Shown piece after piece: positions 112 through 25,971 of a DNA stretch of 32,000 nucleotides; position 1 is the first letter of the stretch, and the number at the start of each line of letters is the position of its first letter. Position numbers and translations under genes: made by a program. Source of the stretch: Candidatus Iainarchaeum sp. (GTDB taxonomy: Archaea; Iainarchaeota; Iainarchaeia; Iainarchaeales; 0-14-0-20-30-16); assembly GCA_028710695.1 (NCBI GenBank), contig JAQTTP010000003.1:60001-92000 (forward strand), given 5' to 3'. The notes under the pieces were generated by a model. That model was given only the letters and a program-made list of their open reading frames with translations, did not search any database and was not told where the DNA came from.

Positions 112-153
112 TTATATTTATCTAATAATAATAGTATGAGGCATAAGAGGGAG
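112..153 (+). promoter_or_regulatory. Candidate promoter and short 5' UTR of giant gene 1
   Basis: A TATA-like ttatattta lies at 112-120, about 40 nt upstream of the ATG at 158. An SD-like gagggag lies at 147-153. A/T boxes are common by chance in this AT-rich DNA. Confidence 0.3.
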
Positions 154-157
154 ATTT

Positions 158-3100
158 ATGGGTCTGAGAGAATTTTACTATAAAATGGAAGAAAAATATT
201 ACGCGTTTTTGGACAGCTTAGACAAAAAAGGAATACCTGTGTATTCTGTTGTTGATCCAATTGATAAAGTTGTTCCATCCTTTGTTTTGTTTTTAGTTCT
301 TTTTGGAATAATTATAATCGCAATAATTTATGCTTTAATTGTTGCATTTGGATTGCCAATGACAAACCAAGTTACAGTAACATTTTCTGATAAGATGGGC
401 ACCCCAATCCCTAATGCTTTAGTAAGCTTTTCTTTGGCAGACTCAAATGAAGAAATGACAACTGATGCTTTTGGAACTATTAAGTTCGAAGCAGAACCAG
501 GAAAAGAAATAATGTTCTCTCTAAAATACAATGATAAGACCTATGTGAAATCAGTAAAAATTGAAGACGATGTATTACAATACAAAGTAAGTATTGACCA
601 ATTGAATTTAAGCAAACAAAAATTATCTTTCTCTCTTTATACAACAGATAATACTCCTTTACAAGCAGTAGATATCTACTTTTCATGTTCTAATTCAAGT
701 GCAGAAGCACCAGACAATATGATGGGCTATAGCACAAATGATGTTGACGTTGACGTAGATGGAGATTGTGGGTACCTAATGGTAAGCACAGCATCAGAAT
801 TCTATAAGCCAACAGATGATACTCAGATAGACAACGGTGAAGCAATATATTTAGATCCTGTACAATCATCAGGAGACTCTGCAATTGTTGTAAATGTAAC
901 TGACACAACAGGTGCAATAGTTACTGATTTTGAAGCAACACTATCTATTGGAATTTATGATGGTTATTATTCTTCAGGATATAGTAATGAAACAAGCCAA
1001 GTTCAATTCGCAAATCTTGCTGCAGGATTATATAAAATAACTGTAAGCAAATCTGGATACACAAATGCAGTTGGCTCTGTAACTCTTGAAGAAACAGATG
1101 TTAAAACATTGAACTTGCAGATGACAAAGCTAGAAGGCGGAACTCAGGTAAGCATAAAGGTAATGAACTTAGCATCAAAAGCTTTGCAAGGTGCAGAAGT
1201 TTGTTTTTATGATATTAATGGTGAAAGTTATACAAAAATTGGTTGTGCAACTACAAACGAAAGTGGGTTGGCAACTTATACTTTAGAAAAAGATAAATCA
1301 CACAAATTTACAGTAACAAAAGAAGGATACTCATCAATAGTTTATACTGATCTTGCTGCAAATTCAGACACAATTGAAGTGAAATTGTCATCAGTAGATC
1401 CAAGCAAGTATAGATTGATGAAAGTAAAAGTAATTGACTCAGAAGGAAAGCCTGTTGAGAATGCAAAAGTAAATGTTTATGATGACAAAGGAAATATAGC
1501 GCCTTATGAGCCTGGAACAACAGACTTAAATGGAATGGCTTATCTGTCTTTTATTGAAGATGGAAAATACAAATTATTTGCATACAAGTTGAATTATTCT
1601 GGATTCTCAGATTTAGCAGACTTTGATAATCAAGATAATTTAGCAACAATTGATTACACAGTTTCAATGTATATTCCAAAAGGAATAATTGCAGTTTCAG
1701 TAGTTGACTCTTATGGAAGCAATGTTCCGAATGCAGTTGTAAAATTCTTTGATGCTTCTTGGAATGAAATTACTGCTTTGGGTGGAAAACACACAGATGG
1801 TTATGGCCAATTGGGTGTTGAATATAGGGCAGACAAAAAATTATTTTTTGTAGTTCAAAAAGAAAGTTATGAAAATTATATTTCAAAATCAGAATATATA
1901 ATTCCAGACACAACAACTGAAAAGAAAGTTGTAATGGAAAAGAAAAAATTAAAGCCTGAACCAAAAGTAGAATTTGTAAATTTAACAACAGAAGATGGAA
2001 CTGATGTTTCTATTTTGGGTGCGGGAAATAAATATATTGCTAAATTTAAAATCACTTTGCCAGAAAAAGAGCAACCATTTGAAACAATGAGCGCATACTT
2101 TGTATCTGGAGATAAAGATATAGTTGAAAAAGATGGTTGGCATATAGAAAAAGTTGTGTATAGTGGATTAGGTACTTTGAGTAAAGGAAGAAGCTATACA
2201 GGAAATTATGATAATGATATAAAAGGGATAAACCAAGTTGGAAATGAAATTGAACAAGGAATGCCATTTGAAGATTCATTTAAATGGATTGGAATAAATT
2301 GGGATCTAGAAAAAATGGATTTAATTTCAGGAATATTCTTTGTTGATGTTTACTTGAAAGTAAAAGATACAACAAAGATTGGTGAAAACCTTCCAATAAA
2401 CTTTAAGTTGTCAACAGAAAATAAAGATGAAAAATTCACAGATCCTTTGAACGAAGTTCCAGAATTCCCAGACGCAAGCAAAACAAAACTGTATAACGAA
2501 AGTAAGAATAAATTCTTTACAGTTGGAACTGCTCAACAGACTTGTGACGAATTATTTTGTTTTGAAATAAACGTTGAAGACAATGACGAAGCAATAATCC
2601 AAGATATGGTTCCTGATACTCCCTATGTTTCAGAGTTAGGAAAGAACTATACTTTGAGATTTAAATTAATAAATAACAACATAAAACCAGTAACAAATTA
2701 TAGGGTAATAATAAAGAACGAGCAAGAAAATACTTTCTTTACAACTTCAAATATAAAAGGAGTTTCAGGAAATATAAGTCCTGTTTTGAACTCAGAAGTT
2801 GCAAAGCAAGAAAACAATTACCAGATTGTTTATAACGAAGATGTATATCAAGAATTGCAAAAGAATGATCTTGTAATTGGAGAGATAAATTTCGAGCCAA
2901 GAAAGATTGGAAGCGGAAGTTTGAAGTTTATTGTAATACAAGATAAACAAGAATATTATTCAAAAGAATTCTTGATAAATGTAAATGCTTACAAAGAAAT
3001 GACTGTAACTTTGGCTCCAGAAGTATTGCCGTCTTATATCCCTTTGAAAGTTGATTTATTAGCAAAGGATAAAGAAACAGGCGAATTAGTAACTGGTGCA

Positions 3101-6100
3101 AAAATATATGTGAAAGATAATTCAGGATTGGTTCTATTTATGGGGGCTACTGACGCAGAAGGAAAAGCAGTAATTGATTTGCCATCTCAAAAACCAAATG
3201 TTTTATTGAAATTATTAGTGTACAAGCCAAAGTATAAATCATTTGAATTTGAATACAAAACAAGTTCAGAATTTATAACTTTGAGCAAAGAAAAAATTGA
3301 TATGAAAATAGATGCGAAATTAGGATTTGCAAAAGAGAGTTTGTTCTTGACAAACACAAGTGAAGTTCCTGTAAAGATTGAAGATATCTTCTTGCAAGGA
3401 AATTTTGCAGAAAAATTGTCATTAGCTCAAATAAATAAATACTTTGAAGTATCACATAAAGGAAAAATGGTTGATAAATCTTTGAAGTATGATTTAGCAA
3501 TAAACCTTGCTTTGACAGAGTTAGGTCAGAACATAACTACAAATGAAGAGTATGATTCAATATTAGTAATTAAATTAAGTGCAATGGGCGGAAAATGGGA
3601 AATGAAAGTTCCAATGCACTTGCTTCTATCTGTTGGTGGAAGTGTTGATGACAGAACTTGTTTGGCTGCAGATTTAATTAATATGAAATTAGTTTCAACT
3701 GAAAATAAACAAGACAAGCAAACACTAACAATAACAAATGGCTGTACAATAAACGGAAAGCCAGTTTCATTGAATAATTTAGAAGCAAAATTAGAATGGA
3801 AAACAAATGCTTTGGGATCAATACAAATGACCAAAGAAGAATATTCAAATAATGTAATGCAAGCTTACTTTACAAGTTTGATTAACAAGTTGACTCCTAG
3901 TAGCGAGAATACTTTTGTAGTGAATATAGAACCAAAATCAAAAGTTTCTGGAAAAGGAGAAGCAATATTACATTTAAGAGCTTTGAACAATACTGAAAGT
4001 GGAGTTGAATATATAATATTAGATATTCCATTGGAAGTTGATGTTGTGAATTATGGTGAATGTATCCAGTTTGAGTTGCCAAATGCAGAAACAGATGTTG
4101 TTGCAACTTTAAGAGATGCAGACACAAGCTTTAAGGTAACAAACACATGTGCTGAAAAAATAGAAGTAACATTTAGCTTGAAGCCAGAGGATACTGTGCA
4201 GATAAGCCCAGACAAGATTTGGGTTAAAGCTAATGAAACAAAAGAAATTAAAGTAAAGCCGACAAATTCAGCAATTGGTGTTTATACTGTTGATGTATTT
4301 GGAAGAACTGAAGGCCACACAAATGAAGGAATAAGAGTAGGAATAAATGCTTTGAGGGTTCTATTGCAACCTTTGACAACAGATTGTTTCTACTTAGAGA
4401 ACTATGAGTTTGATATGGCAAGGAATCCAGAAGAAACAAAGTGGACAACTTTAGTAAATAAATGTGTAAACAAGCAAGCAGTTGTTCAATATGATTTGAA
4501 AATAGAAGTAGATGTTGATGGCTGGGATTATGTTTTAGGTATATTAGGTGGTGCAGCCGGTGGAGCAGTAGGTAATAAACTTGGCGGCATGATCGGTGAG
4601 CTTGGTGGTGGATTACTTGGCGGTTTAGGCGCAGGTAACTTCGGAATGGTAATGCTTGAAACTAAAGATGATTGTGAATTGGAATGTCTCTATAACTATT
4701 CTGGTGAAGAATATACTACCTGTGTGAATGTTTGTGCAAGTATGGGTCTTCCTGAAACAGAAGCCCCAAGTGGTACAACAGGTACTGGAAGTGGTGCTGG
4801 TGCAAGTGGAATTGGTGGAGATGTAAGTGGTACTCCTCCTGCAAATGGTACGGGTACAGGAACAGGTACTGGAGATAAACCGGCGGCAGATAAAAAGAAG
4901 TTTGACAAAGGAAGTTTTAAAGAGGCAATTACTGGTGGACTTGGTTCTGCAGCAGGATCTGCTGGAGTAAGTTACCTAATTGGAAGTCTAACTGGATTAG
5001 ATCCTGAGACAAAGAAAGATACTACTAAATGGTCTGCGATTTTAGGTGGTGTTGGTGGTCTTGCGGGCAGCTGGATTGGAGGCCCAATGGGTATGGTTCT
5101 GGGTGGTTTAGGTGGTGCAGTAGGTAACATTATTGGATTAGCATCTAATGATGGAGACACTATAGAAACAATAACAAGAACAATCCCAACAATGGTTGAA
5201 GATTATATGACTATGAACGATGTTCTCCTGACTGAGGCGGCACAAAAGAGCATGCTGGGTGGAAATATGGCTGCTTTAAAAGCAAAATCAATTGCAGATA
5301 AAGCAGGAACTGTGGCAGCAGAAATAATTAATGCTACGTCAGCTCTCTCTGGAAACGTAGTTTTTGAATCAGGTGGAACAATAGAAATAGAACTATCTAA
5401 AAAAATTGAAAGAACATTTAATAATCAAAATAAACTTGTAAAAGGAATTGGAGAGCAAGCAATTGAAATGTATCCAGTTGGATTTACAAAATCAAAAACA
5501 GGAATGGACAATAAAGTTGAAAGCTTGACTTTGTTATTGAATTATAATAGAAAGAATCTGAAGAGCTTAGTTGCAAGTCAGGATTATAGTACATCCGGAT
5601 GGACAACACAGCCTAACCAGTATATGTCACAGATGGGCGGGTATGGTCAGTCAGGCCAATATGGAATGCAGAATGGCGGATACAATGGCTATGGTTATGG
5701 TTCAAGTATGGGCTATGGCGGTTATGGAACTGGAATGGGTTATAGCGGAATGGACTCATACGGAATGCCATCTGCGTTTAGTACTATAGGACTACAAGCG
5801 GACTCAGATACAATATCCTATGAGGATGCTCAAGAAGACCAGAAAGTAGAAGAAATGGATAGAGAAAAAGTTGAAACATCTCTAGAGCCAGGAAATGTTG
5901 AAATAATAAATGAATATTCTCCGATAAGCATGTTATTTACTGATGTTGCTGATCAGCAAAAGAAATATAACTTGCCAATAGAGAATTGTTTCTTGGCAAA
6001 TGGCAAATCTGGAGCAACAGGTCCAGAAGCAAAACCAAAAGTTGCATTTACTTGGAGATGGAATGATGTTGTAGATTACCAAGTAGGCTCTGGTGGATAT

Positions 6101-7969
6101 ATGTGTAGTGACGGAAACATATATTGTGATGCTACACAGTTTACAATAGAAGTAATAAACAGATTAAAAATTGCAAATGGTTTATTGAAATCATTTAGTC
6201 CAGATTGTGAATATAGCCAAGCAATTTATAATGACACATTTGATGTTACTGATCAATATGTTGGTGTAAGTAGTGTTGTTGTTGAAAGACTTGGGAATTC
6301 ATCAAGTAACTACAATTTAGTTGTGAAAGTACAGAATAATTCCTTGAATAAGCTTTCAGGAAATTATATTGTAAAGGTAGTAGATACACAGCAAACAAAA
6401 GACCTTTACACATTTAATGGACAATTTGATTTGAGCAAGAAATCTAATGCTTCAGATGATGAATTGGTAATAACAAATGAAGTTGAATTGTACTATAGCA
6501 CATTCAAAGTTGAAGTTCAATTTAACTCTGTAAAGAACGAAGATACTACAGAAAAATTGCCATACAATTATGTAATACCTTATAATGGCGAGCAATTTGC
6601 TTATGACTCAACAGCACTAATGGGCTTAGAAAAAAGCACAGATAAAATAATAGAGTGGGGCAATTGTGCTAAGAAAGAAGGCGCAGCAACAACAATTTGG
6701 AATAAGTTGAACTTTGAAGCTTACCTAATGAAGGATGGATTTACAGATGACTTCTTGGCAGACTTCAAAGAATATGCTGTTAACCAGAAATTCTTAGATG
6801 CTCCTGGAGATGCAAAGAAAATAATAAACAACTTGCTTCCAAACAACCTAAAGTTCTTGCCAAAAGAATCTGCTTTGAATGCTATGGGCTATTCATTGCC
6901 GCAAGCAGGATTGTATAAAGTAGAAATTGTTGTGAAATATGGCGATACTCATATGGGCTGGGATGTATTTGACAGCGATGGAAAAATAATTGAAGATGTA
7001 AACTCCATTGCAGTTTATTTAGAGCCAGTAAAGTTTAGTGATAATCCACTATACTATTTGCCATTGGATGCAACTGTTGGTGTTGAGAATTATGAACTTA
7101 AGAGAATTGGATATGGTCTTGACTTTGGCGGAGACACTTTATGGTTCAACAAAGAAAGTGAAGATAATCCAACTTTGATACCAACATTGGTTTCTAAGTC
7201 TAATCCACAAGTTCATGTTGAAACTGTTTCAAAGCAAGATATGGAAACTCTGAACACTTATAAAGGATTAGTTCTAAAGGTTGTTCCAACAGGAACAGTT
7301 GGAGACACAGTAGAAAGAACAATATATTATTATCCATCAGTTCCAGCACCAGTAGCAATGTATATTAGTAAAGAATCAGATGGCCCAGCATATGGATCTT
7401 ATTTGATTTCAAGAGCAAACAAGGGACCTGTAAACTCAGGAAACTCCTTGATGAACTGGTATGGATTCTGTAACAAAGGAACTGAGATGTATGCTCCAGA
7501 AACAGATACAGAAAAGAAATATGCTTGTAAAGGATTCTCTGGCGAAGATATAATTGATCTTCAAGGATATCCTGATAAAGCAGGAACAAAGATAGACATA
7601 CCTTTGGGAGAATTTAAAGCAAATGCTTATGGAATGTTCTTTGATGAGGATAGCTTGTTGAGAACTCCAGAAACAAGCAAGGTATTCTTCAGAGGAATTA
7701 TTTACCTAACACCGAACGAAACATCAACTTTCAAGAAGATAACTGCAAGTGATGAAATGAAGATATTATATCCTGAAGGAGCAAGCGATGAATTCACACT
7801 TGAGCCTTTGAATAAGGATGTATCTACAGTTCAAAGCATTTACGACTTGGTTGGAGATGGGTATATGTGTGTAACTAATCCACAAGGCGGTGCAGGAGTA
7901 GAATTCTGGTGGAACCCTAAGGCTGTATTTGATACCTTGGAGTCCGGAGACGCGGAAGGTAGTAGTTAA
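158..7969 (+). CDS. Giant (2603 aa) membrane-anchored surface protein, paralog 1: conserved N-terminal module + TM helix, prealbumin/CarboxypepD_reg-like beta-sandwich repeats, central glycine-zipper region, G/Y-rich low-complexity tract, conserved C-terminal module
   Basis: This is a single uninterrupted ORF. The N-terminus MGLREFYYKMEEKYYAFLDSLD...IDKVVPSFVLFLVLFGIIIIAIIYALIVAFG aligns with the two other giant ORFs. It has repeated units of the type KVKVIDSEGKPVENAKVNVYDDKGN...TTDLNGMAYLSF..GKYKLFAYKLNYSG (e.g. nt 1418-1605), typical of carboxypeptidase-regulatory-like/prealbumin folds. Many N-x-S/T sequons are visible. GxxxG arrays lie at 4538-4657 and 5030-5146. Confidence 0.9.
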   Translation: MGLREFYYKMEEKYYAFLDSLDKKGIPVYSVVDPIDKVVPSFVLFLVLFGIIIIAIIYALIVAFGLPMTNQVTVTFSDKMGTPIPNALVSFSLADSNEEMTTDAFGTIKFEAEPGKEIMFSLKYNDKTYVKSVKIEDDVLQYKVSIDQLNLSKQKLSFSLYTTDNTPLQAVDIYFSCSNSSAEAPDNMMGYSTNDVDVDVDGDCGYLMVSTASEFYKPTDDTQIDNGEAIYLDPVQSSGDSAIVVNVTDTTGAIVTDFEATLSIGIYDGYYSSGYSNETSQVQFANLAAGLYKITVSKSGYTNAVGSVTLEETDVKTLNLQMTKLEGGTQVSIKVMNLASKALQGAEVCFYDINGESYTKIGCATTNESGLATYTLEKDKSHKFTVTKEGYSSIVYTDLAANSDTIEVKLSSVDPSKYRLMKVKVIDSEGKPVENAKVNVYDDKGNIAPYEPGTTDLNGMAYLSFIEDGKYKLFAYKLNYSGFSDLADFDNQDNLATIDYTVSMYIPKGIIAVSVVDSYGSNVPNAVVKFFDASWNEITALGGKHTDGYGQLGVEYRADKKLFFVVQKESYENYISKSEYIIPDTTTEKKVVMEKKKLKPEPKVEFVNLTTEDGTDVSILGAGNKYIAKFKITLPEKEQPFETMSAYFVSGDKDIVEKDGWHIEKVVYSGLGTLSKGRSYTGNYDNDIKGINQVGNEIEQGMPFEDSFKWIGINWDLEKMDLISGIFFVDVYLKVKDTTKIGENLPINFKLSTENKDEKFTDPLNEVPEFPDASKTKLYNESKNKFFTVGTAQQTCDELFCFEINVEDNDEAIIQDMVPDTPYVSELGKNYTLRFKLINNNIKPVTNYRVIIKNEQENTFFTTSNIKGVSGNISPVLNSEVAKQENNYQIVYNEDVYQELQKNDLVIGEINFEPRKIGSGSLKFIVIQDKQEYYSKEFLINVNAYKEMTVTLAPEVLPSYIPLKVDLLAKDKETGELVTGAKIYVKDNSGLVLFMGATDAEGKAVIDLPSQKPNVLLKLLVYKPKYKSFEFEYKTSSEFITLSKEKIDMKIDAKLGFAKESLFLTNTSEVPVKIEDIFLQGNFAEKLSLAQINKYFEVSHKGKMVDKSLKYDLAINLALTELGQNITTNEEYDSILVIKLSAMGGKWEMKVPMHLLLSVGGSVDDRTCLAADLINMKLVSTENKQDKQTLTITNGCTINGKPVSLNNLEAKLEWKTNALGSIQMTKEEYSNNVMQAYFTSLINKLTPSSENTFVVNIEPKSKVSGKGEAILHLRALNNTESGVEYIILDIPLEVDVVNYGECIQFELPNAETDVVATLRDADTSFKVTNTCAEKIEVTFSLKPEDTVQISPDKIWVKANETKEIKVKPTNSAIGVYTVDVFGRTEGHTNEGIRVGINALRVLLQPLTTDCFYLENYEFDMARNPEETKWTTLVNKCVNKQAVVQYDLKIEVDVDGWDYVLGILGGAAGGAVGNKLGGMIGELGGGLLGGLGAGNFGMVMLETKDDCELECLYNYSGEEYTTCVNVCASMGLPETEAPSGTTGTGSGAGASGIGGDVSGTPPANGTGTGTGTGDKPAADKKKFDKGSFKEAITGGLGSAAGSAGVSYLIGSLTGLDPETKKDTTKWSAILGGVGGLAGSWIGGPMGMVLGGLGGAVGNIIGLASNDGDTIETITRTIPTMVEDYMTMNDVLLTEAAQKSMLGGNMAALKAKSIADKAGTVAAEIINATSALSGNVVFESGGTIEIELSKKIERTFNNQNKLVKGIGEQAIEMYPVGFTKSKTGMDNKVESLTLLLNYNRKNLKSLVASQDYSTSGWTTQPNQYMSQMGGYGQSGQYGMQNGGYNGYGYGSSMGYGGYGTGMGYSGMDSYGMPSAFSTIGLQADSDTISYEDAQEDQKVEEMDREKVETSLEPGNVEIINEYSPISMLFTDVADQQKKYNLPIENCFLANGKSGATGPEAKPKVAFTWRWNDVVDYQVGSGGYMCSDGNIYCDATQFTIEVINRLKIANGLLKSFSPDCEYSQAIYNDTFDVTDQYVGVSSVVVERLGNSSSNYNLVVKVQNNSLNKLSGNYIVKVVDTQQTKDLYTFNGQFDLSKKSNASDDELVITNEVELYYSTFKVEVQFNSVKNEDTTEKLPYNYVIPYNGEQFAYDSTALMGLEKSTDKIIEWGNCAKKEGAATTIWNKLNFEAYLMKDGFTDDFLADFKEYAVNQKFLDAPGDAKKIINNLLPNNLKFLPKESALNAMGYSLPQAGLYKVEIVVKYGDTHMGWDVFDSDGKIIEDVNSIAVYLEPVKFSDNPLYYLPLDATVGVENYELKRIGYGLDFGGDTLWFNKESEDNPTLIPTLVSKSNPQVHVETVSKQDMETLNTYKGLVLKVVPTGTVGDTVERTIYYYPSVPAPVAMYISKESDGPAYGSYLISRANKGPVNSGNSLMNWYGFCNKGTEMYAPETDTEKKYACKGFSGEDIIDLQGYPDKAGTKIDIPLGEFKANAYGMFFDEDSLLRTPETSKVFFRGIIYLTPNETSTFKKITASDEMKILYPEGASDEFTLEPLNKDVSTVQSIYDLVGDGYMCVTNPQGGAGVEFWWNPKAVFDTLESGDAEGSS

Positions 7970-10107: not shown

Positions 10108-13100
10108 ATGGGCTTAAGGGACTTTTATTTTGGTTTAGAAGATAAATACTATAAAATGATCGATAAACTTGATACTATTTTTCCTGCACATGCGATTGTG
10201 GATAGAATAGATAAAGTAATGCCTTCAATGATCCTGTTCTTTATTTTATTTGTAGTTATAATTGTTCTAATAATTTGGGCTGTAATTCCGTCCTATGCTC
10301 AAATAAATGTTTCTTTCTTTAATGATGGCTTGAGTTTGAAGGAAAAAATCCCTTTTAGTATGTATATTGGGGATGAAAACTACTCCTTTGTTTCTGACGG
10401 AGGGTCAGCAATAGTAAAAATACCAAAAAGTGATCTGTATAGAATAAAAGTTGATACTTCTAAGTATTCAATAGACAAAGATTACTCTTTTAGTGATGAA
10501 ATAAAAGTTTTATTAGATAAAAAGAAAAAAAATATTCCAATACAAATTTATTTTAAATCTGGATATTCTGATGTAGAATCCGCAAGCGCAATATTTGATT
10601 GTGATAATATTTCAATACCGGATTCTGAAGCAAGTAAAGAAACAAATAATGGATATATTGAGATAACTGTGCCAGAAGATTGTGGAATTTTGAATATTTC
10701 TGCAAGTGCAGAAGGTTATAATTCTAAGAATGATGTTTGTGATTCAACTTCTTGTGTAATTAATTTTGAAAGTGCTACAAGCGTTAGTGATAATGGAAAA
10801 ACAAATATTCCGACTGCAAATATAGTTGTAAAAATTGCAGATAATTTGGGCTCAAAAGATGGACAGGTAACTATTTATGATTCTTCTGATTTGATAAACC
10901 CTGTTGAAACAGGATATTCTTTAAACGGGTATTATAACTCTAAAGCTTTGGCTGTTGGGGGCTATAAAGTTGCTGTTAATGTTGGAACTTATTTGCCACA
11001 AACAAAAACAATAGTTTTGACTGAAGCAGGAATGAATGTTGATTTCATGGTTATGAAAAACACATTAGGAAATGTATTATTAAAAGTTGATGAAGAAACA
11101 GAATTTTCATATAAGTTGAAAGATTTAAATAATAATATATTGGATTCTGGAAATAGTGACAAAGAAGTTGCATTCCTTCCTGTATTTGAGTACGGAAAAT
11201 ACCTGATTGATTTGACTCCAGATAGTAATGAATTTGGAGTAATCTCAAATGAGCAAGTTGAATTTAAAGAAGGCACTTCAGAAATTACCTTGGATTTGAA
11301 AGAGATAACTTCTTTTAACGCTGTTTTAGTTAAATTGCATGTAATTGATGAATCAGAATCTCCAATACAAGGCGCAAAAGCATTTGTGCAAGATTTGTTT
11401 AGCGGATTTGAAGTGTTTAGTTATAACTTCCCAGAAACTGATGAAAATGGAGACACTCAACTTCCCATTACTGAAGAAGGGGCTTACTCTTTTAGAGTTT
11501 ACAAAGGTTATTCAGAAGGAATGAGCGAGCAAGTAACAATTACTTTTGAGCCAGGAACTGAAATGCCAGAAGAAGAGTTGGATGTTGTAATTTATTTGGG
11601 AAATGGAAGTTTTAATATAACTGTTTTGGATGAATTAGATTATGTTGTGCCATTTGCACAAATTGATTTTTATACAAAAGGACTGACAAAAAAATCAGGA
11701 ACAAAATTAACTGATAATGCTGGAAAATTATTATTTTCATTAAAAGCAGGAACAGAAAAATTCTTTGTGGCATCTAAAGAAGGCTATATGCCATTCTATA
11801 GTGAAGCAAGGTTTTTAACTCCTGCAAATATTTGGGATATAAATGCAAATTTAGAACCACAAAAACTAAAAGAGGATGATGAAAAAGCAAGAGTTGAATA
11901 CTTGGGTGTATTTGATGCTCTTGGCGGAGAACCAACTAATTTCGAAGTTGATAAAGCAGTATATTTGGGTTATGATATCCACCTTTACACTGATGTGGAT
12001 GAAATGAACTTCGAATATACTACTGGAAAAGAAACAACAACTGTAGAACAAGATTCTTTATTTATTTTTGATAGTAGTTCTTCATCACAAGTGGATTCAA
12101 TGTATGAAGATCTGGAAAAAACAATTTACACTGAGGATAAAGGAAAAATATTAACTGCAAAATGGACTACTGGATTGGATTCTGCAAAAGTGGAAAAAGG
12201 AATTTATAGGATCTATGTGAAAGTAATGGTTAGAAATGATAGCTCAGTATCTTTGTACGAACCATTGAATATAAAATGGAAATTATATTTGGATGAAAAG
12301 TTAAATTCAAGCGAAGAAAAAGAATATTTCTTAGGAAGTAGTTTGGATTGTAGTGATATGTTTTGTGCAAAAACATCTTTATTGGACATTGAAAACCAAA
12401 TCTATGTTGAAAATATTGGAAATGTAAATAAAAATGAACAAAAATATCCTTTAGTAATTGGAAAGAAGTATAAAACTGAATTCACCTTAATGAACGGAAT
12501 AACTGCAAGCGATGGAGAAATTGAAAATGGATACTTGAAAGCACACACAGCAACAAGTTCAGATACAAGTTTCATGGCTGTTGAAAATGATGTTGATAAA
12601 TATAATTTCTATCAATTTTCAAATATATCTTTGAGTGGACCAAACAGCGAGAGCCAATATTATGGCGCCGCAAAAACAATTTTAGTAGATAAATATAATT
12701 TCACAAAATTCTTTGCAAATAAAACAATTTCTGGAAGCTTTAATTTAATTCCAACTTATGATAATGGGAATTACATTAACTTTTGGGTTATAGATTCTGA
12801 TAAACAAGTTCCAGTAAGGGGGGCTCCAGCATTTAATTATTGGTTTGTGCCTGATGCACCACACTCTCTGAGCATAAAACTATTCCCTAATACTTTGTTA
12901 GTGCCAAATAAAGTTCAGAATTTGAAAGTGTATGTTTATGATGAACTTGAAAGTGTTGTAAAAGACGCAAAAGTAGTTGTATTAAAGAAAGCACCTAATG
13001 ACTCAGTATACAAAACTGTGCAAGGTTGTAATAACTTAACAACTGATTATGAGGGCAAAGTAGTTTGTGAACTTCCGCCTTTTGAACCTAATACCTTTAT

Positions 13101-16100
13101 ACAAGTGTTGGCTTACAAAGAAGGATACAAGAGCTACAAGCATAATGATTTATTGCCTGATTTGAAAGTTGTGGAAGAAATAATTTCTTTTAATCCTGCG
13201 AAATTGGATATTACAATTTCATATCCTAAAGAAAAAGCAGTGGTTGCAGATTTGACAATTGCAAATGCAAGTGCACAGGATTTAATAATAAACAATATTG
13301 ATTTGCAATTTGATAAATATTCTGAAAATTCTAAATTCCTTTTGAACTGGGAAGCAATGGAAGCTTACTTTGAGTCAGAATATAAAGGAAAAGTTATTTA
13401 TGGAATTGAAGAAGATAAAGGAGTAAATGAAACAATTTTGCAAAACTTCTTTAAGGTAATAGCAAATGACACTTTTGATAAGAGTGTATATGCTGATAAA
13501 ATTGGCGGAATAATAAAAGTAACTTTGGATACAAGTCCAGGAACTGTAACTTTGGATATTCCTTTTTCAATAAAATTCAAATTAGATTCTTATCCTGAAA
13601 ATGCAGGAGAGTGTTTGAAGATTTCAATGCTAGAAAAAGATTTCTATATTGAAAAAGCAACAAACACAGAAATCGAAATGATAAATACTTGTTTGTTAGA
13701 TTCTGAAAAATTAACTCCTGCAATATTTGATAAATTATTTTTGTTGCTAACTTTAGAAGATGGAAGTTATAGTATTGTGAATTATAGTTTAACAATACCT
13801 GACAAAGTTTCAAAGAATGTTGATATCGGAGTTCCTGCTTTACTTCTTGAAAATCTGAAAACAGATGTAACAAAACCAGATATGACTGGGTTCTTGGGAA
13901 TGACTCCTAAGTCAGTAAAAGGAAACCAAAAAATTGGAATTAAATTAATGGGTTATGTGACAACGGAATCTGGCCCAGCAAAACTTGAATCTAATACAAT
14001 ATCAATTAATGTAAATACTGTTGAGTTAGCAAATTGTATTGGGGTTTACAATGACAACGGCGAAAAAATAGACAGAATAGATTTTGGTGTGTTTAGTAGT
14101 ATAGAATATTTGGCGACAGCAGAATCAATAAATAATAAAGTTCATGGTCCATCAACAGAAATAGAAATAAAGAACGAATGTTCTGGATCTTTGTTGTATA
14201 TAAGAGCATGTAAAGATAATGAAAATAATTTTAGTCCGGGTTGTGGAAATGAAAACAGCGATGCAAAACTTTCATTCTCTGTTGAAGACTTCACAAAAGG
14301 AATTGAATTGGCTGGTGGCGCAAGCCAAAAAGTAGAGATTTATAGGCCATCAATACCTGGTGCATATGCTTTAGATCTGTGGGTAAAAACAAAAGACCAA
14401 TGGGGCTATAAAAAGATTTATGATGTTAAAACAAATGTAAAAACAACAACCGCATTTGGATACTTTAGTTATAATCCATTCTTGCCTATGTTTGATCTGA
14501 ATACTGATATTACTCCTATGACAAATGGAGACGAATTTGAGTCAGATATAATGTACCTGTTCAATAGAGATTTATGGGTTTCAAAGATGAGTGATTTAGA
14601 GACTCTAGAAAAAATAGCAGAATGTGATACTGGCGGCTCTGGATGTTGGAATTCTTTAGATAGATTAGATCTGAGCTCTGGACTTGGTGACGATGGAGAT
14701 AGTGTAGACAATTCAGAAACTGCGAGAAAAGCAGTATTCTATAGTGGAGTGGGAGTTGCAGGTGTTGGAGTTATTATTTTGATTGGTGTTGCTCTGTGTG
14801 CATCTTCTGTGCCAGTAGCCGGTTGGATTATTGGTGGTGCCGCGGCCATTGCTGCAGGGACATTTGCAATAATTTCTGCATTGGCTCCGGATGACTTTGA
14901 ACAAATAACAGAATATCACTTGTTTGATATGGTTGGGGAAGATATTGCTCTTGATGCTGTGATTTATAGTCAAACTGATAAGAAAACTTATAATTGGCTG
15001 GATGGTACTTCAATGGATCCCGTAAAGTTGACGAGCTTGTTTGGAGAGCGGTATTATGATCTGTATTATGTTAATAAAGAAGTTGCTGGGTCTGTAGGAT
15101 TTGCAGGCGGAGACCACAAGAAAGATTTGTGGTTTACTGTGTATTGTGGAACTGAATATGAGCCAGTTGTAGATGCAATTGTAATAAACGACATAAAAAA
15201 AGAAGTTTGTGGCTGGCCTGAAGATGAACCTTTTGTTGTGAATGGTTCTGATGTTGAATTTAGACCAGATTGTTCTGATGCAGGATTCTTGGACGGATTT
15301 GAACTACATTCACATGTTTATGTTCCTTGTGTTCTAAAACCAAAGAACTGGGTATATGAACAATTCAAAGGTGTAGATTATGGTTTGCCAAATACTGGTT
15401 TGGCAAGAGTAAAATATACTACAAAAGATTTGAAGCCAGGATATAATTACTTTGATGTTGATATGAATGTTATTGGGCTTTTGGATATAGATCCAAAAGA
15501 AGTAAAGTTTAGAGTTTCTTTGTACAACCCTTTATCTGAAGAAGAAAAAATTCTTCCTCTTGGAGACTCTTGTAAGAATCTAAGTGGAGAGATTATTGGT
15601 TATACTGGTGAAAAAGCAAGGCCAAAACTAAAGTTTGTATGGGATTGGCAATCACAGGGGTCTGTTTTGAGCCCATATGAAGATATGAACTTTTGTAATA
15701 CAGATAACTATTGTGACTCAACTCAATTCATGATGAATATGTTCAATAGAATAAATACATTTAATGATGAAATTTTGGATTTGAGTAAGAGCAATGATAT
15801 GGATTTGCCGAAAACAAATCCTCAACCAGAAACACTTAAACCAGAGTATGACTACGATCCTGCAAAAGCAGAATCTCTTGGAGTTAAGTCTGTAAAACTA
15901 GAATTTACTAATTCAAACCTTTTGTATTTGAAAGTATCAAAAGATGTTGATGTAAATGTAAGTAAAATAAGTGTAATAGTTGGTGGGGCAGATGGGTCTT
16001 CTGGAGATATGGCTGTATCTTCTCAAAATCCAAATGTGTTTACTTATACCATATCTGATCAACCAGTTGAAGAATACAAAGATTTAGATGGAAAGAAGTA

Positions 16101-17346
16101 TTCAATCATTTTGAAAATATATTCCGGAAATGAATCCGGGTTGTTGCCTGTGAATGTAACGTTAACATATATTCCAGAAGTACCTGCAAAGCCAATAAAC
16201 GTACCTTTGTCAACAGAAATAATGGATGGTGCAATGGCTTTATCTAAATGGTTCTGGGATACTAATATGAACTTAGATGATGCTACATCTGACACTTTGT
16301 TTGATGCACAAAAGAAGATATATTTCTTGGCAAACATAATGAAAGATGGATTTACAGAAGACTTCTTTAATGACTTTGTAAATTCATGTAATAGTGAATT
16401 CTTTGTGTGTCCAAGTGAAGTAAAAGATAGTTTTATGGCTCTTATGGAAGAAGGGCGTTTGAAAGTAGTTAATGTAGATGGCACAAACAAATTAAATGGC
16501 CCCGGAAAGTATGTTGTAAGAACTATAATTGATTATAAGAATACAGACCTAGAAATTAAAGATGCAAATATAATAATAATTTTAGAGAAAGTTGAGCCAC
16601 CAATACAAGATAATATTTTGTATTATATGCCTCTGGATGGTCCTATTGGAATAAGTGATTATAGTGTTGATAGACAAGGCTATGGTGTTGACTTCTCTGG
16701 AGCAACAATTGACCTTTTTAAGCTTGGAAATTTAGCAAAGAAATTGACAGTAAACACAACATCTAATCCAATAAATACTGTGAATGTAGAATCAAATTAT
16801 GATTTTGCTTCTGCTAACAAAATTGCAAGAGGCAGAGTTTTAGGAATAAATACTTTGGGCGACCAACAAGTGTTTGTGAACTTTGTTCCAATGAATCAAA
16901 CAAAGTTTAACTTTGAACTAACTCCAGAAACAGATAAAGATACAAAATTCTGTTATGAAGTAGAACTTGATGACCAGATAATGAAAGGTCCAGATTCCTT
17001 GCTGCCGTTCTTTGCAAAAGATCCTGAAGCAAAAGATTTCACAGGACAAATGATGGTAGATAACTACCCTAAATTTGCAGAGGCAGGAGTTTGTGGAGAT
17101 CAAGCTGGATTGAAGTATAGCTTAGAATCAGTAATGAGTTCTGATCCAATAGGTCTTTACACTTATGTGTATGCTTTGAATAACACAAATGTAAAAGTGA
17201 CCAATAGTAGTTATGACAATACAGAAAGTTTGTCTGGAAAAACATTAAGTAGTGTATTTGATGATATTGCTGCAGGAAGGCTGTGTATAAATTCCACAAG
17301 CCAGACAATGGATGTATTTTGGAATGAATATGCTCAACAAAATTAA
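10108..17346 (+). CDS. Giant (2412 aa) membrane-anchored surface protein, paralog 2: same N-terminal module, beta-sandwich repeats, central two-helix TM hairpin, conserved C-terminal module
   Basis: This is an uninterrupted ORF. The N-terminus MGLRDFYFGLEDKYYKMIDKLD...IDKVMPSMILFFILFVVIIVLIIWAVIPSYA aligns with paralogs 1 and 3. It has repeats such as VKLHVIDESESPIQGAKAFVQD...ETDENGDTQLPITEEGAYSFRVYKGYSEG. A hydrophobic pair lies at nt 14731-14889. C-terminal motifs are shared with paralogs 1 and 3. Confidence 0.9.
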   Translation: MGLRDFYFGLEDKYYKMIDKLDTIFPAHAIVDRIDKVMPSMILFFILFVVIIVLIIWAVIPSYAQINVSFFNDGLSLKEKIPFSMYIGDENYSFVSDGGSAIVKIPKSDLYRIKVDTSKYSIDKDYSFSDEIKVLLDKKKKNIPIQIYFKSGYSDVESASAIFDCDNISIPDSEASKETNNGYIEITVPEDCGILNISASAEGYNSKNDVCDSTSCVINFESATSVSDNGKTNIPTANIVVKIADNLGSKDGQVTIYDSSDLINPVETGYSLNGYYNSKALAVGGYKVAVNVGTYLPQTKTIVLTEAGMNVDFMVMKNTLGNVLLKVDEETEFSYKLKDLNNNILDSGNSDKEVAFLPVFEYGKYLIDLTPDSNEFGVISNEQVEFKEGTSEITLDLKEITSFNAVLVKLHVIDESESPIQGAKAFVQDLFSGFEVFSYNFPETDENGDTQLPITEEGAYSFRVYKGYSEGMSEQVTITFEPGTEMPEEELDVVIYLGNGSFNITVLDELDYVVPFAQIDFYTKGLTKKSGTKLTDNAGKLLFSLKAGTEKFFVASKEGYMPFYSEARFLTPANIWDINANLEPQKLKEDDEKARVEYLGVFDALGGEPTNFEVDKAVYLGYDIHLYTDVDEMNFEYTTGKETTTVEQDSLFIFDSSSSSQVDSMYEDLEKTIYTEDKGKILTAKWTTGLDSAKVEKGIYRIYVKVMVRNDSSVSLYEPLNIKWKLYLDEKLNSSEEKEYFLGSSLDCSDMFCAKTSLLDIENQIYVENIGNVNKNEQKYPLVIGKKYKTEFTLMNGITASDGEIENGYLKAHTATSSDTSFMAVENDVDKYNFYQFSNISLSGPNSESQYYGAAKTILVDKYNFTKFFANKTISGSFNLIPTYDNGNYINFWVIDSDKQVPVRGAPAFNYWFVPDAPHSLSIKLFPNTLLVPNKVQNLKVYVYDELESVVKDAKVVVLKKAPNDSVYKTVQGCNNLTTDYEGKVVCELPPFEPNTFIQVLAYKEGYKSYKHNDLLPDLKVVEEIISFNPAKLDITISYPKEKAVVADLTIANASAQDLIINNIDLQFDKYSENSKFLLNWEAMEAYFESEYKGKVIYGIEEDKGVNETILQNFFKVIANDTFDKSVYADKIGGIIKVTLDTSPGTVTLDIPFSIKFKLDSYPENAGECLKISMLEKDFYIEKATNTEIEMINTCLLDSEKLTPAIFDKLFLLLTLEDGSYSIVNYSLTIPDKVSKNVDIGVPALLLENLKTDVTKPDMTGFLGMTPKSVKGNQKIGIKLMGYVTTESGPAKLESNTISINVNTVELANCIGVYNDNGEKIDRIDFGVFSSIEYLATAESINNKVHGPSTEIEIKNECSGSLLYIRACKDNENNFSPGCGNENSDAKLSFSVEDFTKGIELAGGASQKVEIYRPSIPGAYALDLWVKTKDQWGYKKIYDVKTNVKTTTAFGYFSYNPFLPMFDLNTDITPMTNGDEFESDIMYLFNRDLWVSKMSDLETLEKIAECDTGGSGCWNSLDRLDLSSGLGDDGDSVDNSETARKAVFYSGVGVAGVGVIILIGVALCASSVPVAGWIIGGAAAIAAGTFAIISALAPDDFEQITEYHLFDMVGEDIALDAVIYSQTDKKTYNWLDGTSMDPVKLTSLFGERYYDLYYVNKEVAGSVGFAGGDHKKDLWFTVYCGTEYEPVVDAIVINDIKKEVCGWPEDEPFVVNGSDVEFRPDCSDAGFLDGFELHSHVYVPCVLKPKNWVYEQFKGVDYGLPNTGLARVKYTTKDLKPGYNYFDVDMNVIGLLDIDPKEVKFRVSLYNPLSEEEKILPLGDSCKNLSGEIIGYTGEKARPKLKFVWDWQSQGSVLSPYEDMNFCNTDNYCDSTQFMMNMFNRINTFNDEILDLSKSNDMDLPKTNPQPETLKPEYDYDPAKAESLGVKSVKLEFTNSNLLYLKVSKDVDVNVSKISVIVGGADGSSGDMAVSSQNPNVFTYTISDQPVEEYKDLDGKKYSIILKIYSGNESGLLPVNVTLTYIPEVPAKPINVPLSTEIMDGAMALSKWFWDTNMNLDDATSDTLFDAQKKIYFLANIMKDGFTEDFFNDFVNSCNSEFFVCPSEVKDSFMALMEEGRLKVVNVDGTNKLNGPGKYVVRTIIDYKNTDLEIKDANIIIILEKVEPPIQDNILYYMPLDGPIGISDYSVDRQGYGVDFSGATIDLFKLGNLAKKLTVNTTSNPINTVNVESNYDFASANKIARGRVLGINTLGDQQVFVNFVPMNQTKFNFELTPETDKDTKFCYEVELDDQIMKGPDSLLPFFAKDPEAKDFTGQMMVDNYPKFAEAGVCGDQAGLKYSLESVMSSDPIGLYTYVYALNNTNVKVTNSSYDNTESLSGKTLSSVFDDIAAGRLCINSTSQTMDVFWNEYAQQN

Positions 17347-24907: not shown

Positions 24908-25327
24908 ATGGATATAACAATGTTGATAGGGCTAGGAGAGTTCTTTGGGGACTTTGTCTTCATAATAAAGATCTTTGCCTTTATTGCCATTCTTGGGTTT
25001 GTTAACAGATATATCCAGAGCAAGTTAATAAAAATAATAATGGTCGTGTTTATGGGTTATTTTATCCTTATTGCAAACTGGGCTGTATTTGGAACTATGT
25101 TTGTGATATATACTTTATTGGGAATTGGTGTTGCAGGAATACTAACAGATTTCTTCTTTGCTGGTCAGAATATTATTGGTGAAGGTGAACAAGAAAGGCA
25201 GATGGCCCAAGAAAAAGAGCGGGAAGAAATGGAGAGAAGAAGAATGCTTGAGGATGCACGGCCAGTATCTAGTAGTGCGAGTTTGCATAAAAGGCCCCCA
25301 ATTCCACCTGCACTTATGAGAAGGTAG
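24908..25327 (+). CDS. Small polytopic membrane protein (about 3 TM) with charged E/R/K-rich and Pro-rich C-terminal tail
   Basis: The ORF lies 33 nt after the giant gene 3 stop with no T-run between. An SD ggtg lies at 24897-24900. Hydrophobic segments are FVFIIKIFAFIAILGFV, IIMVVFMGYFILIANWAVF and MFVIYTLLGIGVAGIL. The tail is EGEQERQMAQEKEREEMERRRMLED...KRPPIPPALMRR. Confidence 0.7.
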   Translation: MDITMLIGLGEFFGDFVFIIKIFAFIAILGFVNRYIQSKLIKIIMVVFMGYFILIANWAVFGTMFVIYTLLGIGVAGILTDFFFAGQNIIGEGEQERQMAQEKEREEMERRRMLEDARPVSSSASLHKRPPIPPALMRR

Positions 25328-25331
25328 AACT

Positions 25332-25691: not shown

Positions 25692-25725
25692 CTATAAAAA
25701 CAAAATTGTGTTATATAGTGATAAT

Positions 25726-25971
25726 ATGAATTGGATTCTGTTAGTTGCTGATGTAGGAACATTTAAAGGGGATGTATGGTTAGCCCTGTTCCTTTACGTA
25801 AGTATAATGGTTTTTGCATGGGCAAAAGGAAAGCTTGGAAGCCCAGAAGTAGCTATTTTGTATACAATCATAATGATGTTTTTGGTGTTTTATCAGCACG
25901 ATGTTCTAATTTGGCTTGCCTTGGGACTATACCTTTACCAGACCTATGGTAAGGAGATATTCAAGGGCTGA
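25726..25971 (+). CDS. Small polytopic membrane protein (about 3 TM)
   Basis: The track ORF starts at GTG 25708. The ATG at 25726 is preferred because the SD-like gtgat (25718-25722) precedes it. Hydrophobic segments are VWLALFLYVSIMVFAWA, VAILYTIIMMFLVFY and VLIWLALGLYLY. Confidence 0.65.
   Translation: MNWILLVADVGTFKGDVWLALFLYVSIMVFAWAKGKLGSPEVAILYTIIMMFLVFYQHDVLIWLALGLYLYQTYGKEIFKG

What the first reader, a model, noticed from the sequence alone, without database searches (positions are those of the whole stretch)
158..352. Strongly conserved about 40-aa N-terminal extension before the first hydrophobic helix in all giant paralogs (possible dedicated targeting or docking signal)
Hand alignment of aa 1-65 (nt 158-352), 1-64 (nt 10108-10299) and 1-64 (nt 17498-17689) gives this consensus: M-x-[LF]-R-[ED]-[FL]-Y-x-x-[MLI]-E-[ED]-K-Y-Y-x-[FM]-[LI]-D-x-[LI]...[IF]-P-x-[YH]...D-x-I-D-K-V-[VM]-P-S-[FM]-[VI]-[LF]-F, followed by about 20 hydrophobic residues.

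Copies 2 and 3 are identical at about half of these positions, while the following ectodomains are barely alignable. This is far too long and too conserved for an ordinary Sec n-region.

Two readings are possible. It may be a cytoplasmic handle that docks onto a conserved partner, for example the downstream small membrane proteins. Alternatively it may be an archaeal functional analogue of the extended signal peptides (ESPR, YSIRK) that bacteria use for very large surface proteins.

Small residues after the helix (VAFG|L, PSYA|Q, ASVG|S) could be signal-peptidase sites. If so, the mature protein would be anchored only by the central segment.
Basis: seen in the sequence. Interest (0 to 1): 0.65.

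Follow-up and report, generated by a model that had tools for sequence, protein, structure and literature searches.

The report
Conserved N-terminal handle of archaeal giant proteins
The three giant surface-protein genes in this window all begin with the same roughly 44-residue peptide followed by a membrane helix; this start heads one giant-protein family found in nearly all Iainarchaeota (tiny DPANN archaea), matches no described signal or domain, and most likely stays inside the cell as a docking handle, though that is untested.

Summary

**What is there**
- All three giants (nt 158, 10108, 17498) start with about 40-44 conserved residues, then a 21-25-residue hydrophobic helix.
- A fourth giant lies just upstream of the window. 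A fifth is split across two contigs.
- Among the four tandem paralogs the first 60 residues are 46% identical, against 13% overall.
- Synonymous sites are saturated, so selection acts on the peptide.

**Distribution**
- The genome is Iainarchaeota (Diapherotrites, DPANN).
- A module profile hits 206 of 215 phylum genomes, and 58 of 58 high-quality ones.
- It sits at the N-terminus of 1,500-3,450-aa proteins in 27 of 28 cases in near-complete genomes.
- It gives 1,055 hits among 1.84 billion protein representatives.
- All carriers are collinear homologs. It is therefore one family's N-terminus, not a portable signal.
- Other large secreted proteins of this genome use ordinary short signal peptides.

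**Structure and relatives**
- AlphaFold2 (pLDDT 91.6) gives helix 2-23, helix 28-36 and a membrane helix 41-64.
- The peptide holds two copies of a 14-residue unit (Y-x-Φ-Φ-D-x-Φ-D-K-x-Φ-P-x-aromatic).
- Pfam, NCBIfam (including ESPR and YSIRK) and PDB give no match.

**Reading**
- Best reading, about 0.5: an uncleaved signal anchor with a cytoplasmic docking or assembly handle.
- Cleavage is not excluded.
- The scan had already flagged this operon, and this peptide, from another window.

The parts
158..7969 (+). Giant protein gene 1 (2,603 aa), carrier of the module
   Evidence: ORF and translation. Ig-like domains Big_1, MG4 and CarboxypepD_reg start at residue 69.
147..154 (+). Shine-Dalgarno-like GAGGGAGA, 3 nt before the ATG of gene 1
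   Evidence: Upstream sequence read. It supports ATG 158 as the true start.
158..277 (+). Cytoplasmic N-terminal module of giant 1 (aa 1-40): helix 1 (aa 2-23, nt 161-226), KGIP turn, helix 2 (aa 28-36, nt 239-265), KVVP turn
   Evidence: AF2 with a 67-sequence alignment gives mean pLDDT 91.6. Conservation is shown.
200..244 (+). Repeat unit 1 of the module (aa 15-29, YAFLDSLDKKGIPVY)
   Evidence: Profile-profile comparison of unit 1 with unit 2 gives z = 4.0-4.6, with 0 of 5,000 column shuffles reaching the observed score.
242..283 (+). Repeat unit 2 of the module (aa 29-42, YSVVDPIDKVVPSF), ending in the near-invariant P-S-F cap of the membrane helix
   Evidence: Repeat test. P40 is 99%, S41 95% and F42 90% conserved.
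278..352 (+). Hydrophobic membrane helix of giant 1 (aa 41-65), the presumed signal anchor
   Evidence: AF2 helix 41-64. The uncharged stretch has a median length of 29 aa with a 20-24-aa hydrophobic core across homologs.
10108..17346 (+). Giant protein gene 2 (2,412 aa)
10108..10299 (+). Module (aa 1-39, nt 10108-10224) plus membrane helix (aa 40-64, nt 10225-10299) of giant 2. GGTG lies at 10099-10102 upstream.
   Evidence: Alignments, profile E = 1.7e-35, upstream sequence.
17498..24874 (+). Giant protein gene 3 (2,458 aa from ATG 17498)
   Evidence: Homology begins at this Met, and GGTGA lies at 17489-17493.
17498..17689 (+). Module (aa 1-39, nt 17498-17614) plus membrane helix (aa 40-64, nt 17615-17689) of giant 3
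   Evidence: Alignments and profile E = 1.4e-35.
24908..26767 (+). Cassette of five small membrane-protein genes behind giant 3. It is a candidate partner of the handle by inference only.
   Evidence: ORFs; no Pfam family. Earlier scan notes e1-2518013 and e1-2518081 report the cassette as conserved behind the giants. No interaction was tested here.

Best explanation
The flagged stretch is the N-terminus of a single, undescribed family of giant (about 1,500-3,450 aa) surface proteins found throughout the phylum Iainarchaeota.

**Anatomy**
- It has a 40-48-residue, net-acidic, tyrosine-rich cytoplasmic mini-domain.
- The mini-domain is one 22-residue amphipathic helix with a 3-4 heptad hydrophobic stripe (L3, Y7, L10, Y14, F17, L21), then a short second helix.
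- It is built from two copies of a 14-residue unit, each ending in a Gly/Pro turn.
- An invariant Pro-Ser-Phe cap leads directly into a 21-25-residue membrane helix.

**Proposed mechanism**
- The hydrophobic helix acts as a Sec/SRP signal anchor, with the N-terminus inside the cell and the Ig-like ectodomain outside. The module and its predicted helices are shown; the in/out orientation is inferred from the Ig-like domains that follow the helix and from the lysine/arginine bias.
- The helix is not cleaved. This is inferred.
- The retained cytoplasmic helical hairpin presents an invariant stripe (K4, Y8, E11, Y15, D19, D22). This stripe serves as a common docking or co-assembly handle shared by all 4-5 ancient paralogs of each genome.
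- The handle may bind a shared partner, such as the conserved small-membrane-protein cassette, or the paralogs may bind each other. This is inferred, and no partner has been identified.
For: - **Peptide-level selection.** The first 60 aa are 0.46 identical against 0.13 overall among the four tandem paralogs. More than half of the identical residues use different codons, and third positions differ at 34-39 of 61 codons. This excludes recent gene conversion or a nucleotide-level element.
- **Phylum-wide, N-terminal, on giants.** The profile hits 206 of 215 genomes and 58 of 58 high-quality genomes. In near-complete genomes 27 of 28 hits are on 1,523-3,447-aa frames. The library of 1.84e9 proteins gives 1,055 hits, and in almost all of the best 150 the match starts within the first 20 residues of the called protein (a few at 33-107). 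The short hits read straight on into the first Ig-like domain and stop abruptly or run out of frame, as fragments cut by contig ends would.
- **One family with ancient paralog classes a-e.** Carriers are collinear homologs, and the ectodomain tree shows classes shared across genomes with branch lengths above 1. The module has therefore been kept through very deep divergence.
- **Structure.** pLDDT is 91.6, with helices 2-23 and 28-36 and a membrane helix 41-64. An internal 14-aa repeat is present.
- **Invariant polar residues.** E11, Y15 and D19 are at 99%, D33 at 93% and Y29 at 95%. They are spaced i, i+4, i+8 on helix 1. The hydrophobic moment is only moderate (0.4) and there is no basic face. 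This fits a protein-protein surface better than a lipid-binding helix.
- **Unlike the genome's ordinary signal peptides.** Those are short and basic. Here the n-region is about 44 aa with net charge about -2.4, the hydrophobic core has membrane-helix length, and there is no conserved c-region.
- **Extracellular domains follow.** Ig-like domains start right after the helix.
Against:
- Small residues (A, G, S) and prolines are common just after the helix. The h-regions of this genome's ordinary signal peptides are read by eye as about 16-20 residues, only slightly shorter than the module's helix. Signal-peptidase cleavage therefore remains possible.
- There is one cassette for 4-5 giants, and class a and class e giants are encoded elsewhere. 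Genomic linkage to the cassette is only partial.
- High AF2 confidence for helices does not prove a folded hairpin. Coordinates and PAE were not inspected.
- No expression or proteomic data could be obtained.
Confidence: 0.5

Rival explanations
1. The module plus helix is a cleaved, extended signal peptide, a functional analogue of ESPR or YSIRK. The conserved extension would act only before cleavage, for example to pace or localise Sec translocation of a very long chain. The roughly 65-residue peptide would then be removed by signal peptidase I, leaving the protein held by its mid-protein membrane hairpin.
For: - The layout is N-terminal, with a long conserved extension followed by a hydrophobic segment.
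- Small residues often follow the helix: VAFG, PSYA and ASVG in the window, and A/G/S-rich tails in homologs.
- A second membrane attachment exists mid-protein in many members. Cleavage would therefore not release these proteins.
Against: - No ESPR or YSIRK model matches, in 67 members scanned at E up to 1.
- The hydrophobic core is 20-24 residues and begins with an invariant P-S-F cap. There is no conserved c-region at a fixed distance.
- Class e members (594-2,162 aa) show no GA-rich uncharged mid-protein segment in a crude composition scan, which also missed it in some full-length giants, so the hairpin itself was not searched for. If they do lack it they would be released by cleavage, yet they keep the module.
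- The module is restricted to one protein family. Other large secreted proteins of the genome do without it.
Confidence: 0.22
2. The module is a self-contained juxtamembrane structural or topogenic element with no external partner. The helical hairpin would simply fix the N-in orientation and the register of the anchor for a protein whose flanks lack the usual positive charges. Alternatively it would stiffen the anchor mechanically. Its conservation would then reflect folding and insertion constraints only.
For: - The net charge of the N-region is negative, so the ordinary positive-inside cue is weak.
- A folded N-terminal domain is known to prevent N-terminal translocation (general membrane-protein biology, from my own knowledge).
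- AF2 predicts a compact set of helices next to the membrane helix.
- The hydrophobic heptad stripe could pack onto helix 2 within the same chain.
Against: - Near-invariance of solvent-facing acidic and tyrosine residues across 5 paralog classes and the whole phylum is more than a generic folded plug would need.
- Ordinary type II anchors achieve their topology with far less sequence constraint.
Confidence: 0.2
3. The module is a releasable cytoplasmic signalling peptide. The giant ectodomain would sense contact, intramembrane proteolysis at the P-S-F boundary would follow, and the acidic 40-residue hairpin would be freed to act in the cytoplasm, in the manner of anti-sigma or Notch-type signalling.
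For: Support is by analogy only. The helix-breaking Pro-Ser at the cytoplasmic end of the membrane helix is invariant, and the cytoplasmic peptide is highly conserved.
Against: - No linked intramembrane protease or cytoplasmic target was seen in the window.
- P-S-F is equally well explained as a helix N-cap.
- Nothing was tested directly.
Confidence: 0.05

Closest known systems
ESPR, the extended signal peptide region (Pfam PF13018) of autotransporters, two-partner-secretion proteins and trimeric autotransporters
   Same: Both are conserved N-terminal extensions placed in front of the hydrophobic targeting segment of very large surface proteins. Both are restricted to particular protein families rather than used generally.
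   Different: - No sequence match.
- ESPR is about 25 residues and precedes a classical cleaved n/h/c signal peptide in Gram-negative bacteria (my own knowledge).
- Here the extension is about 44 residues, acidic, with two predicted helices and an internal repeat. It is followed by a helix of membrane-spanning length with no conserved cleavage region, and it occurs in an archaeon with no outer membrane.
YSIRK-G/S signal peptides (PF04650 / TIGR01168) of Gram-positive surface proteins
   Same: Both carry a conserved motif in the N-terminal region of surface-protein precursors. In YSIRK the motif directs where secretion occurs (the cross-wall) rather than whether it occurs (my own knowledge).
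   Different: - No match in Pfam or NCBIfam.
- YSIRK is a short motif inside a cleaved signal peptide and is paired with a C-terminal LPXTG sortase signal.
- The C-termini read end in no hydrophobic tail such as follows an LPXTG signal; the motif itself was not searched for.
N-terminal retention modules of type I-secreted giant adhesins (LapA, SiiE, MpIBP)
   Same: In both, the N-terminal element of a giant Ig-repeat adhesin keeps the protein attached to the producing cell.
   Different: - Those modules are folded periplasmic plugs in a TolC channel, exported C-terminus first by a type I system (my own knowledge).
- Here there is a cytoplasmic peptide plus a membrane helix.
- No ABC transporter, membrane fusion protein or TolC gene was seen in the window.
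SPEARE and other giant surface proteins of DPANN archaea
   Same: Both are very large surface proteins that take up a sizeable share of a tiny DPANN genome and are presumed to mediate cell-surface or cell-cell functions.
   Different: - They come from a different phylum (Nanohaloarchaeota) and have different domain content.
- I did not test them for the module. None of the listed module hits is a record named as another archaeal phylum except a few NCBI-labelled 'Micrarchaeota' contigs, but only the best 80 of 219 confirmed loci and the best 150 of 1,055 library hits were listed.
Giant1-5 of Apilactobacillus kunkeei (PMC12863079)
   Same: Five consecutive giant extracellular-protein genes occupy about 6% of a 1.5 Mb genome. 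This parallels the five giants here, which take about 40 kb, or roughly 4.5%, of a 0.9 Mb genome.
   Different: Those proteins carry ordinary Sec/SPI signal peptides and a conserved C-terminal DUF5776 region. They have no conserved cytoplasmic N-terminal module and are not homologous.

Membership tests
ESPR (PF13018) | Sequence match to the ESPR profile | tested here: not met
   hmmscan of the three window modules at E up to 1 and of 67 family members gave no ESPR hit.
ESPR (PF13018) | The extension precedes a classical, cleaved n/h/c signal peptide | tested here: inconclusive
   The hydrophobic core is 20-24 aa and no conserved c-region is present. Small residues are common after the helix, so cleavage cannot be excluded without proteomics.
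ESPR (PF13018) | Passenger of a type V secretion system in a diderm bacterium | tested here: not met
   The host is an Iainarchaeota archaeon. The protein has Ig-like domains and no beta-barrel translocator family.
YSIRK-G/S signal peptide (PF04650 / TIGR01168) | Sequence match to the YSIRK profile | tested here: not met
   No hit in Pfam or NCBIfam for 67 members.
Tat signal peptide | Twin-arginine motif before a short h-region | tested here: not met
   None of the three window sequences has an RR pair in its N-region.
Archaeal class III (type IV pilin-like) signal peptide | Short basic n-region with a [KR]G-[AF] prepilin peptidase site immediately before the hydrophobic segment | tested here: not met
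   The helix is preceded by the invariant P-S-F, not by K/R-G. The n-region is about 44 aa and acidic.
Type II (N-in) signal-anchor membrane protein (functional class) | Cytoplasmic N-terminal segment, one hydrophobic helix of membrane-spanning length, and extracytoplasmic domains after it | tested here: met
   AF2 places a helix at 41-64. Ig-like domains start at residue 69. There are more K+R residues on the N side than on the C side.
Type II (N-in) signal-anchor membrane protein (functional class) | The anchor is not removed by signal peptidase | not testable with these tools
   This needs N-terminal proteomics or an expression experiment.
Type I-secretion adhesin retention module (LapA type) | C-terminal RTX or type I secretion signal and a linked ABC/MFP/TolC export system | tested here: not met
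   No such families were found in the giants or their neighbours.

The most novel reading that the evidence does not exclude
The module is a phylum-specific cytoplasmic docking domain. Through it, all 4-5 paralogous giant surface proteins of an Iainarchaeota cell would plug into one dedicated membrane platform, namely the conserved cassette of five tiny membrane proteins, possibly with further cytoplasmic factors. This would be an undescribed archaeal apparatus for inserting, positioning or regulating giant envelope proteins. It would be functionally comparable to the accessory systems of bacterial giant adhesins but built from unrelated parts.
Probability: 0.2. Interest if true: 0.7.

Novelty: new variant of a known kind. 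Interest (0 to 1): 0.45.

Why it matters
- Iainarchaeota spend about 4-5% of a genome under 1 Mb on five giant envelope proteins whose function is unknown.
- The N-terminal handle is by far their most constrained part, and it is the only part that faces the cytoplasm.
- The handle is therefore the most tractable entry point for finding what these proteins connect to. A 45-residue peptide can be used for pull-downs, co-folding and reporter fusions.
- It also gives a sharp sequence signature for annotating this family in metagenomes. The consensus is roughly M-G-L-K-[DE]-Φ-Y-x-x-Φ-E-D-K-[YW]-Y-x-Φ-L-D-x-Φ-D-x-K-(G)-I-P-V-Y-K-Φ-Φ-D-P-I-D-K-x-Φ-P-S-F.
- Such genes are usually fragmented and left as 'hypothetical' in metagenome assemblies.
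- If the handle proves to be a targeting or docking signal, it would be the first family-specific extended N-terminal signal described for archaeal surface proteins.

Tried and rejected
**Searches that gave nothing**
- The search for homologous proteins with region 1-66 of giant 1 returned only the query. The word index is too sparse for this peptide.
A 7-sequence subset worked.
- Foldseek of the AF2 model against PDB gave no match. A profile search of PDB sequences gave only noise, with E at least 0.2.
- Pfam and NCBIfam scans of 67 members gave only scattered sub-threshold membrane-helix noise such as ODV-E18 and MamI.
- Literature searches for Iainarchaeota or Diapherotrites giant or surface proteins, and for extended signal peptides in archaea, found no description of this family or module.

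**Leads that did not hold**
In this window the 485-aa gene at 29981-31438 (minus strand) has no HerA similarity. No HerA-like gene stood out among the ORFs within about 14 kb upstream; that stretch was only listed, not family-searched.

**Ideas rejected**
- A nucleotide-level element or recent gene conversion as the cause of conservation: synonymous sites are saturated.
- A general large-protein secretion signal of the organism: other proteins of 1,260-1,810 aa use short signal peptides.
- A lipid-binding in-plane helix: there is no basic face, the hydrophobic moment is only 0.4, and the acidic residues are invariant.
Full report
**1. The observation**

The window holds three very long plus-strand ORFs: 158-7969 (2,603 aa), 10108-17346 (2,412 aa) and 17498-24874 (2,458 aa from the ATG). 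Their first 62 residues align with one single-residue gap and 22 invariant columns.

In a MAFFT alignment of the four tandem paralogs of this genome, the first 60-residue window has a mean pairwise identity of 0.46. The overall mean is 0.13, and the best window that does not overlap the module reaches 0.25.

The ectodomains are still collinearly alignable by BLASTP at 23-27% identity. 'Barely alignable' is therefore an overstatement, but the contrast is real.

At the codon level, more than half of the identical residues use different codons. Third positions differ at 34-39 of 61 codons. The conservation is therefore purifying selection on the peptide, not recent gene conversion or a DNA/RNA element.

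Each ATG is preceded at 3-5 nt by a Shine-Dalgarno-like GGTG(A) or GAGGGAGA. Homology across the phylum begins at this Met.

**2. Where it lies and how far it extends**

The window is G000:C19:60001-92000 of a 0.9 Mb genome that is 86% complete, with 33% G+C.

A module profile finds a fourth giant directly upstream of the window (C19:52346, 2,570 aa). It finds a fifth at the end of contig C5. The 5'-open 1,973-aa frame at the start of C19 is homologous to the C-terminal part of the same paralog class. C5 and C19 are therefore very probably adjacent, and the fifth giant has at least 3,300 aa. Together the five genes take about 40 kb, roughly 4.5% of the genome.

Record titles of related loci name Candidatus Iainarchaeum, Diapherotrites and archaeon GW2011_AR10.

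The profile matches:
- 40 of 41 relatives;
- 206 of 215 genomes of the phylum, including 58 of 58 high-quality genomes, usually with 3-7 copies each and often in tandem.

In five complete or near-complete genomes there are 28 significant matches. Twenty-seven head open frames of 1,523-3,447 aa and one heads a 616-aa frame.

An exhaustive hmmsearch of 1.84 billion representative proteins gives 1,055 hits at E up to 1e-3 and 654 at E up to 1e-10. In almost all of the best 150 the match starts within the first 20 residues of the called protein; a few start at 33-107, probably because the start was called too far upstream. The many short hits run straight into the first Ig-like domain and stop abruptly or go out of frame, which is how genes cut off by contig ends would look.

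**3. One family, not a portable signal**

All module-bearing proteins from four genomes are collinear homologs for at least 500 residues beyond the module. This includes the short ones of 594, 1,505, 1,665 and 1,867 aa.

A tree built on residues 67-700, which excludes the module, recovers paralog classes shared across genomes. Terminal branches are longer than 1 substitution per site. The paralogs are therefore ancient, and the module has been held nearly constant through that divergence.

In the same genome, other large secreted proteins (1,260-1,810 aa) start with ordinary short, basic signal peptides or a lipobox. The module is therefore not this organism's general device for exporting large proteins. 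It belongs to this family.

**4. Anatomy**

Across 173 sequences the following residues are conserved at the stated levels:

| Residue | Conservation |
|---|---|
| E11, Y15, D19, P40 | 99% |
| Y7, P27 | 97% |
| Y29, S41 | 95% |
| D33 | 93% |
| F42 | 90% |

The best 150 library hits used here are biased towards the consensus. The unbiased genome-derived set gives the same near-invariant positions.

AlphaFold2 with a 67-sequence alignment predicts helix 2-23, a KGIP turn, helix 28-36, a KVVP turn and a membrane helix 41-64. Mean pLDDT is 91.6 and pTM is 0.61.

Helix 1 carries a 3-4 heptad hydrophobic stripe (L3, Y7, L10, Y14, F17, L21). Beside it lies an invariant polar stripe (K4, Y8, E11, Y15, D19, D22). 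Its hydrophobic moment is moderate at 0.4, and it has no basic face.

The module contains two copies of a 14-residue unit, Y-x-Φ-Φ-D-x-Φ-D-K-x-Φ-P-x-aromatic. Unit 1 ends in GIPVY and unit 2 ends in (G/N)IPSF or VVPSF. Profile-profile similarity gives z = 4.0 on the 11 columns that were not used to anchor the comparison, and 0 of 5,000 shuffles reach the observed score. Paralog class a shows the duplication most plainly (FLDEKGIP...FLEEKGIP).

The N-region averages 44 residues with net charge about -2.4. The uncharged stretch after P-S has a median of 29 residues, with a 20-24-residue hydrophobic core. The residues that follow it are variable, often containing Pro, Gly or Ser, with no conserved cleavage motif. 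Ig-like domains (Big_1, MG4, CarboxypepD_reg) begin at about residue 69.

**5. Comparison with known families**

- No Pfam or NCBIfam family matches, in the three window sequences or in 67 members scanned at E up to 1. ESPR and YSIRK are not hit.
- No PDB sequence or fold match was found.
- There is no twin-arginine motif and no prepilin site.
- Literature searches found no description of this family or module.
- A convergent parallel is the five tandem giant genes of Apilactobacillus kunkeei. Those use ordinary Sec signal peptides.

**6. Interpretation**

What is shown: the module is a real N-terminal element, conserved across the phylum and specific to one family, with confidently predicted helices and a following helix of membrane-spanning length.

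What is inferred:
- The orientation is N-in. Extracellular-type domains follow the helix, and the N side carries more K+R.
- The helix is a retained signal anchor rather than a cleaved signal. The arguments are its length, the invariant P-S-F cap, the absence of a conserved c-region, and retention of the module in class e members, where a crude scan found no GA-rich mid-protein segment (the hairpin itself was not searched for).
- The cytoplasmic hairpin is a docking or co-assembly handle. The argument is that solvent-facing acidic and tyrosine residues are invariant across all ancient paralog classes.

I put about 0.5 on this composite reading. The rivals are:
- about 0.22 on a cleaved extended signal peptide;
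- about 0.2 on a partner-less topogenic or structural plug;
- about 0.05 on a releasable signalling peptide.

There is one cassette for 4-5 giants, and two paralog classes are encoded elsewhere.

**7. Relation to earlier scan notes**

The scan had already described the giants-plus-cassette operon (e1-2518081, e1-2518013) and the mid-protein glycine-zipper hairpin (e1-2518009). It had also flagged this same N-terminal peptide from an overlapping window without follow-up (e1-2518082). In another genome it reported the cluster (e1-3181671) and the split of the N-terminal motif into two subtypes (e1-3181220).

My results agree with these notes and add:
- the distribution of the module itself;
- the test that it belongs to one family;
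- its predicted structure;
- the internal repeat;
- the membership tests against known signals.

**8. Limits**

- Multimer prediction, signal-peptide predictors and proteomics were not available.
- Only the best 150 of the 1,055 library hits could be inspected. Occurrence outside Iainarchaeota is 'not found in what was searched', not 'absent'.

Noticed in passing
G000:C19:52346-60058 (just upstream of the window; locus L004/L008): A fourth tandem giant paralog (2,570 aa, class b) sits directly upstream of the window. Its module variant is MGLKDFYFGLEEKYYNFLDWLDSKGIPLYKVDDWLHNKGIAGFP. The window therefore shows only three genes of a four-gene array.
   Followed up: yes
G000:C5:50633-54634 and G000:C19:1-5920: The fifth, class a giant is split by an assembly break inside an N/G/Y-rich low-complexity tract. 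C5 ends with its first 1,334 aa. C19 begins with a 1,973-aa 5'-open frame homologous to residues from about 1,360 onward of class a giants in other genomes. Contigs C5 and C19 are therefore very probably adjacent.
   Followed up: partly
G000:C19:50806-52230 (+), immediately upstream of the giant array: A 474-aa ORF starts MLNFDLQGKKGFTLFTALVGFIVIG. This looks like an archaeal class III (type IV pilin-like) signal peptide with a KG/F cleavage site. It may be a pilin-like protein encoded next to the giants.
   Followed up: no
window 8083-8712 (+) and 9220-9945 (-): Two housekeeping-type genes interrupt the giant array between giants 1 and 2. One is a ScpA-like kleisin (PF02616, E 7e-9). The other is a weak Bud32/KEOPS-kinase-like gene (TIGR03724, E 1e-9, far below its cut-off).
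   Followed up: partly
window 29981-31438 (-): A 485-aa ORF has no Pfam, NCBIfam or PDB relative apart from a chance-level cystine-knot-like stretch at residues 174-198.
   Followed up: partly
L092 (JAFCBY010000083.1, 5.2 kb contig labelled Candidatus Falkowbacteria) and L077/L085/L099 (labelled Micrarchaeota): A few module-bearing contigs carry NCBI names from other phyla, including one from a CPR bacterium. They are short contigs and are most likely mis-binned or mis-named Iainarchaeota DNA, but this was not checked.
   Followed up: no
window 17462-17497: the ORF listing extends giant 3 to a TTG at 17462. Homology, the GGTGA at 17489-17493 and the family consensus all point to ATG 17498 as the real start.
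   Followed up: yes
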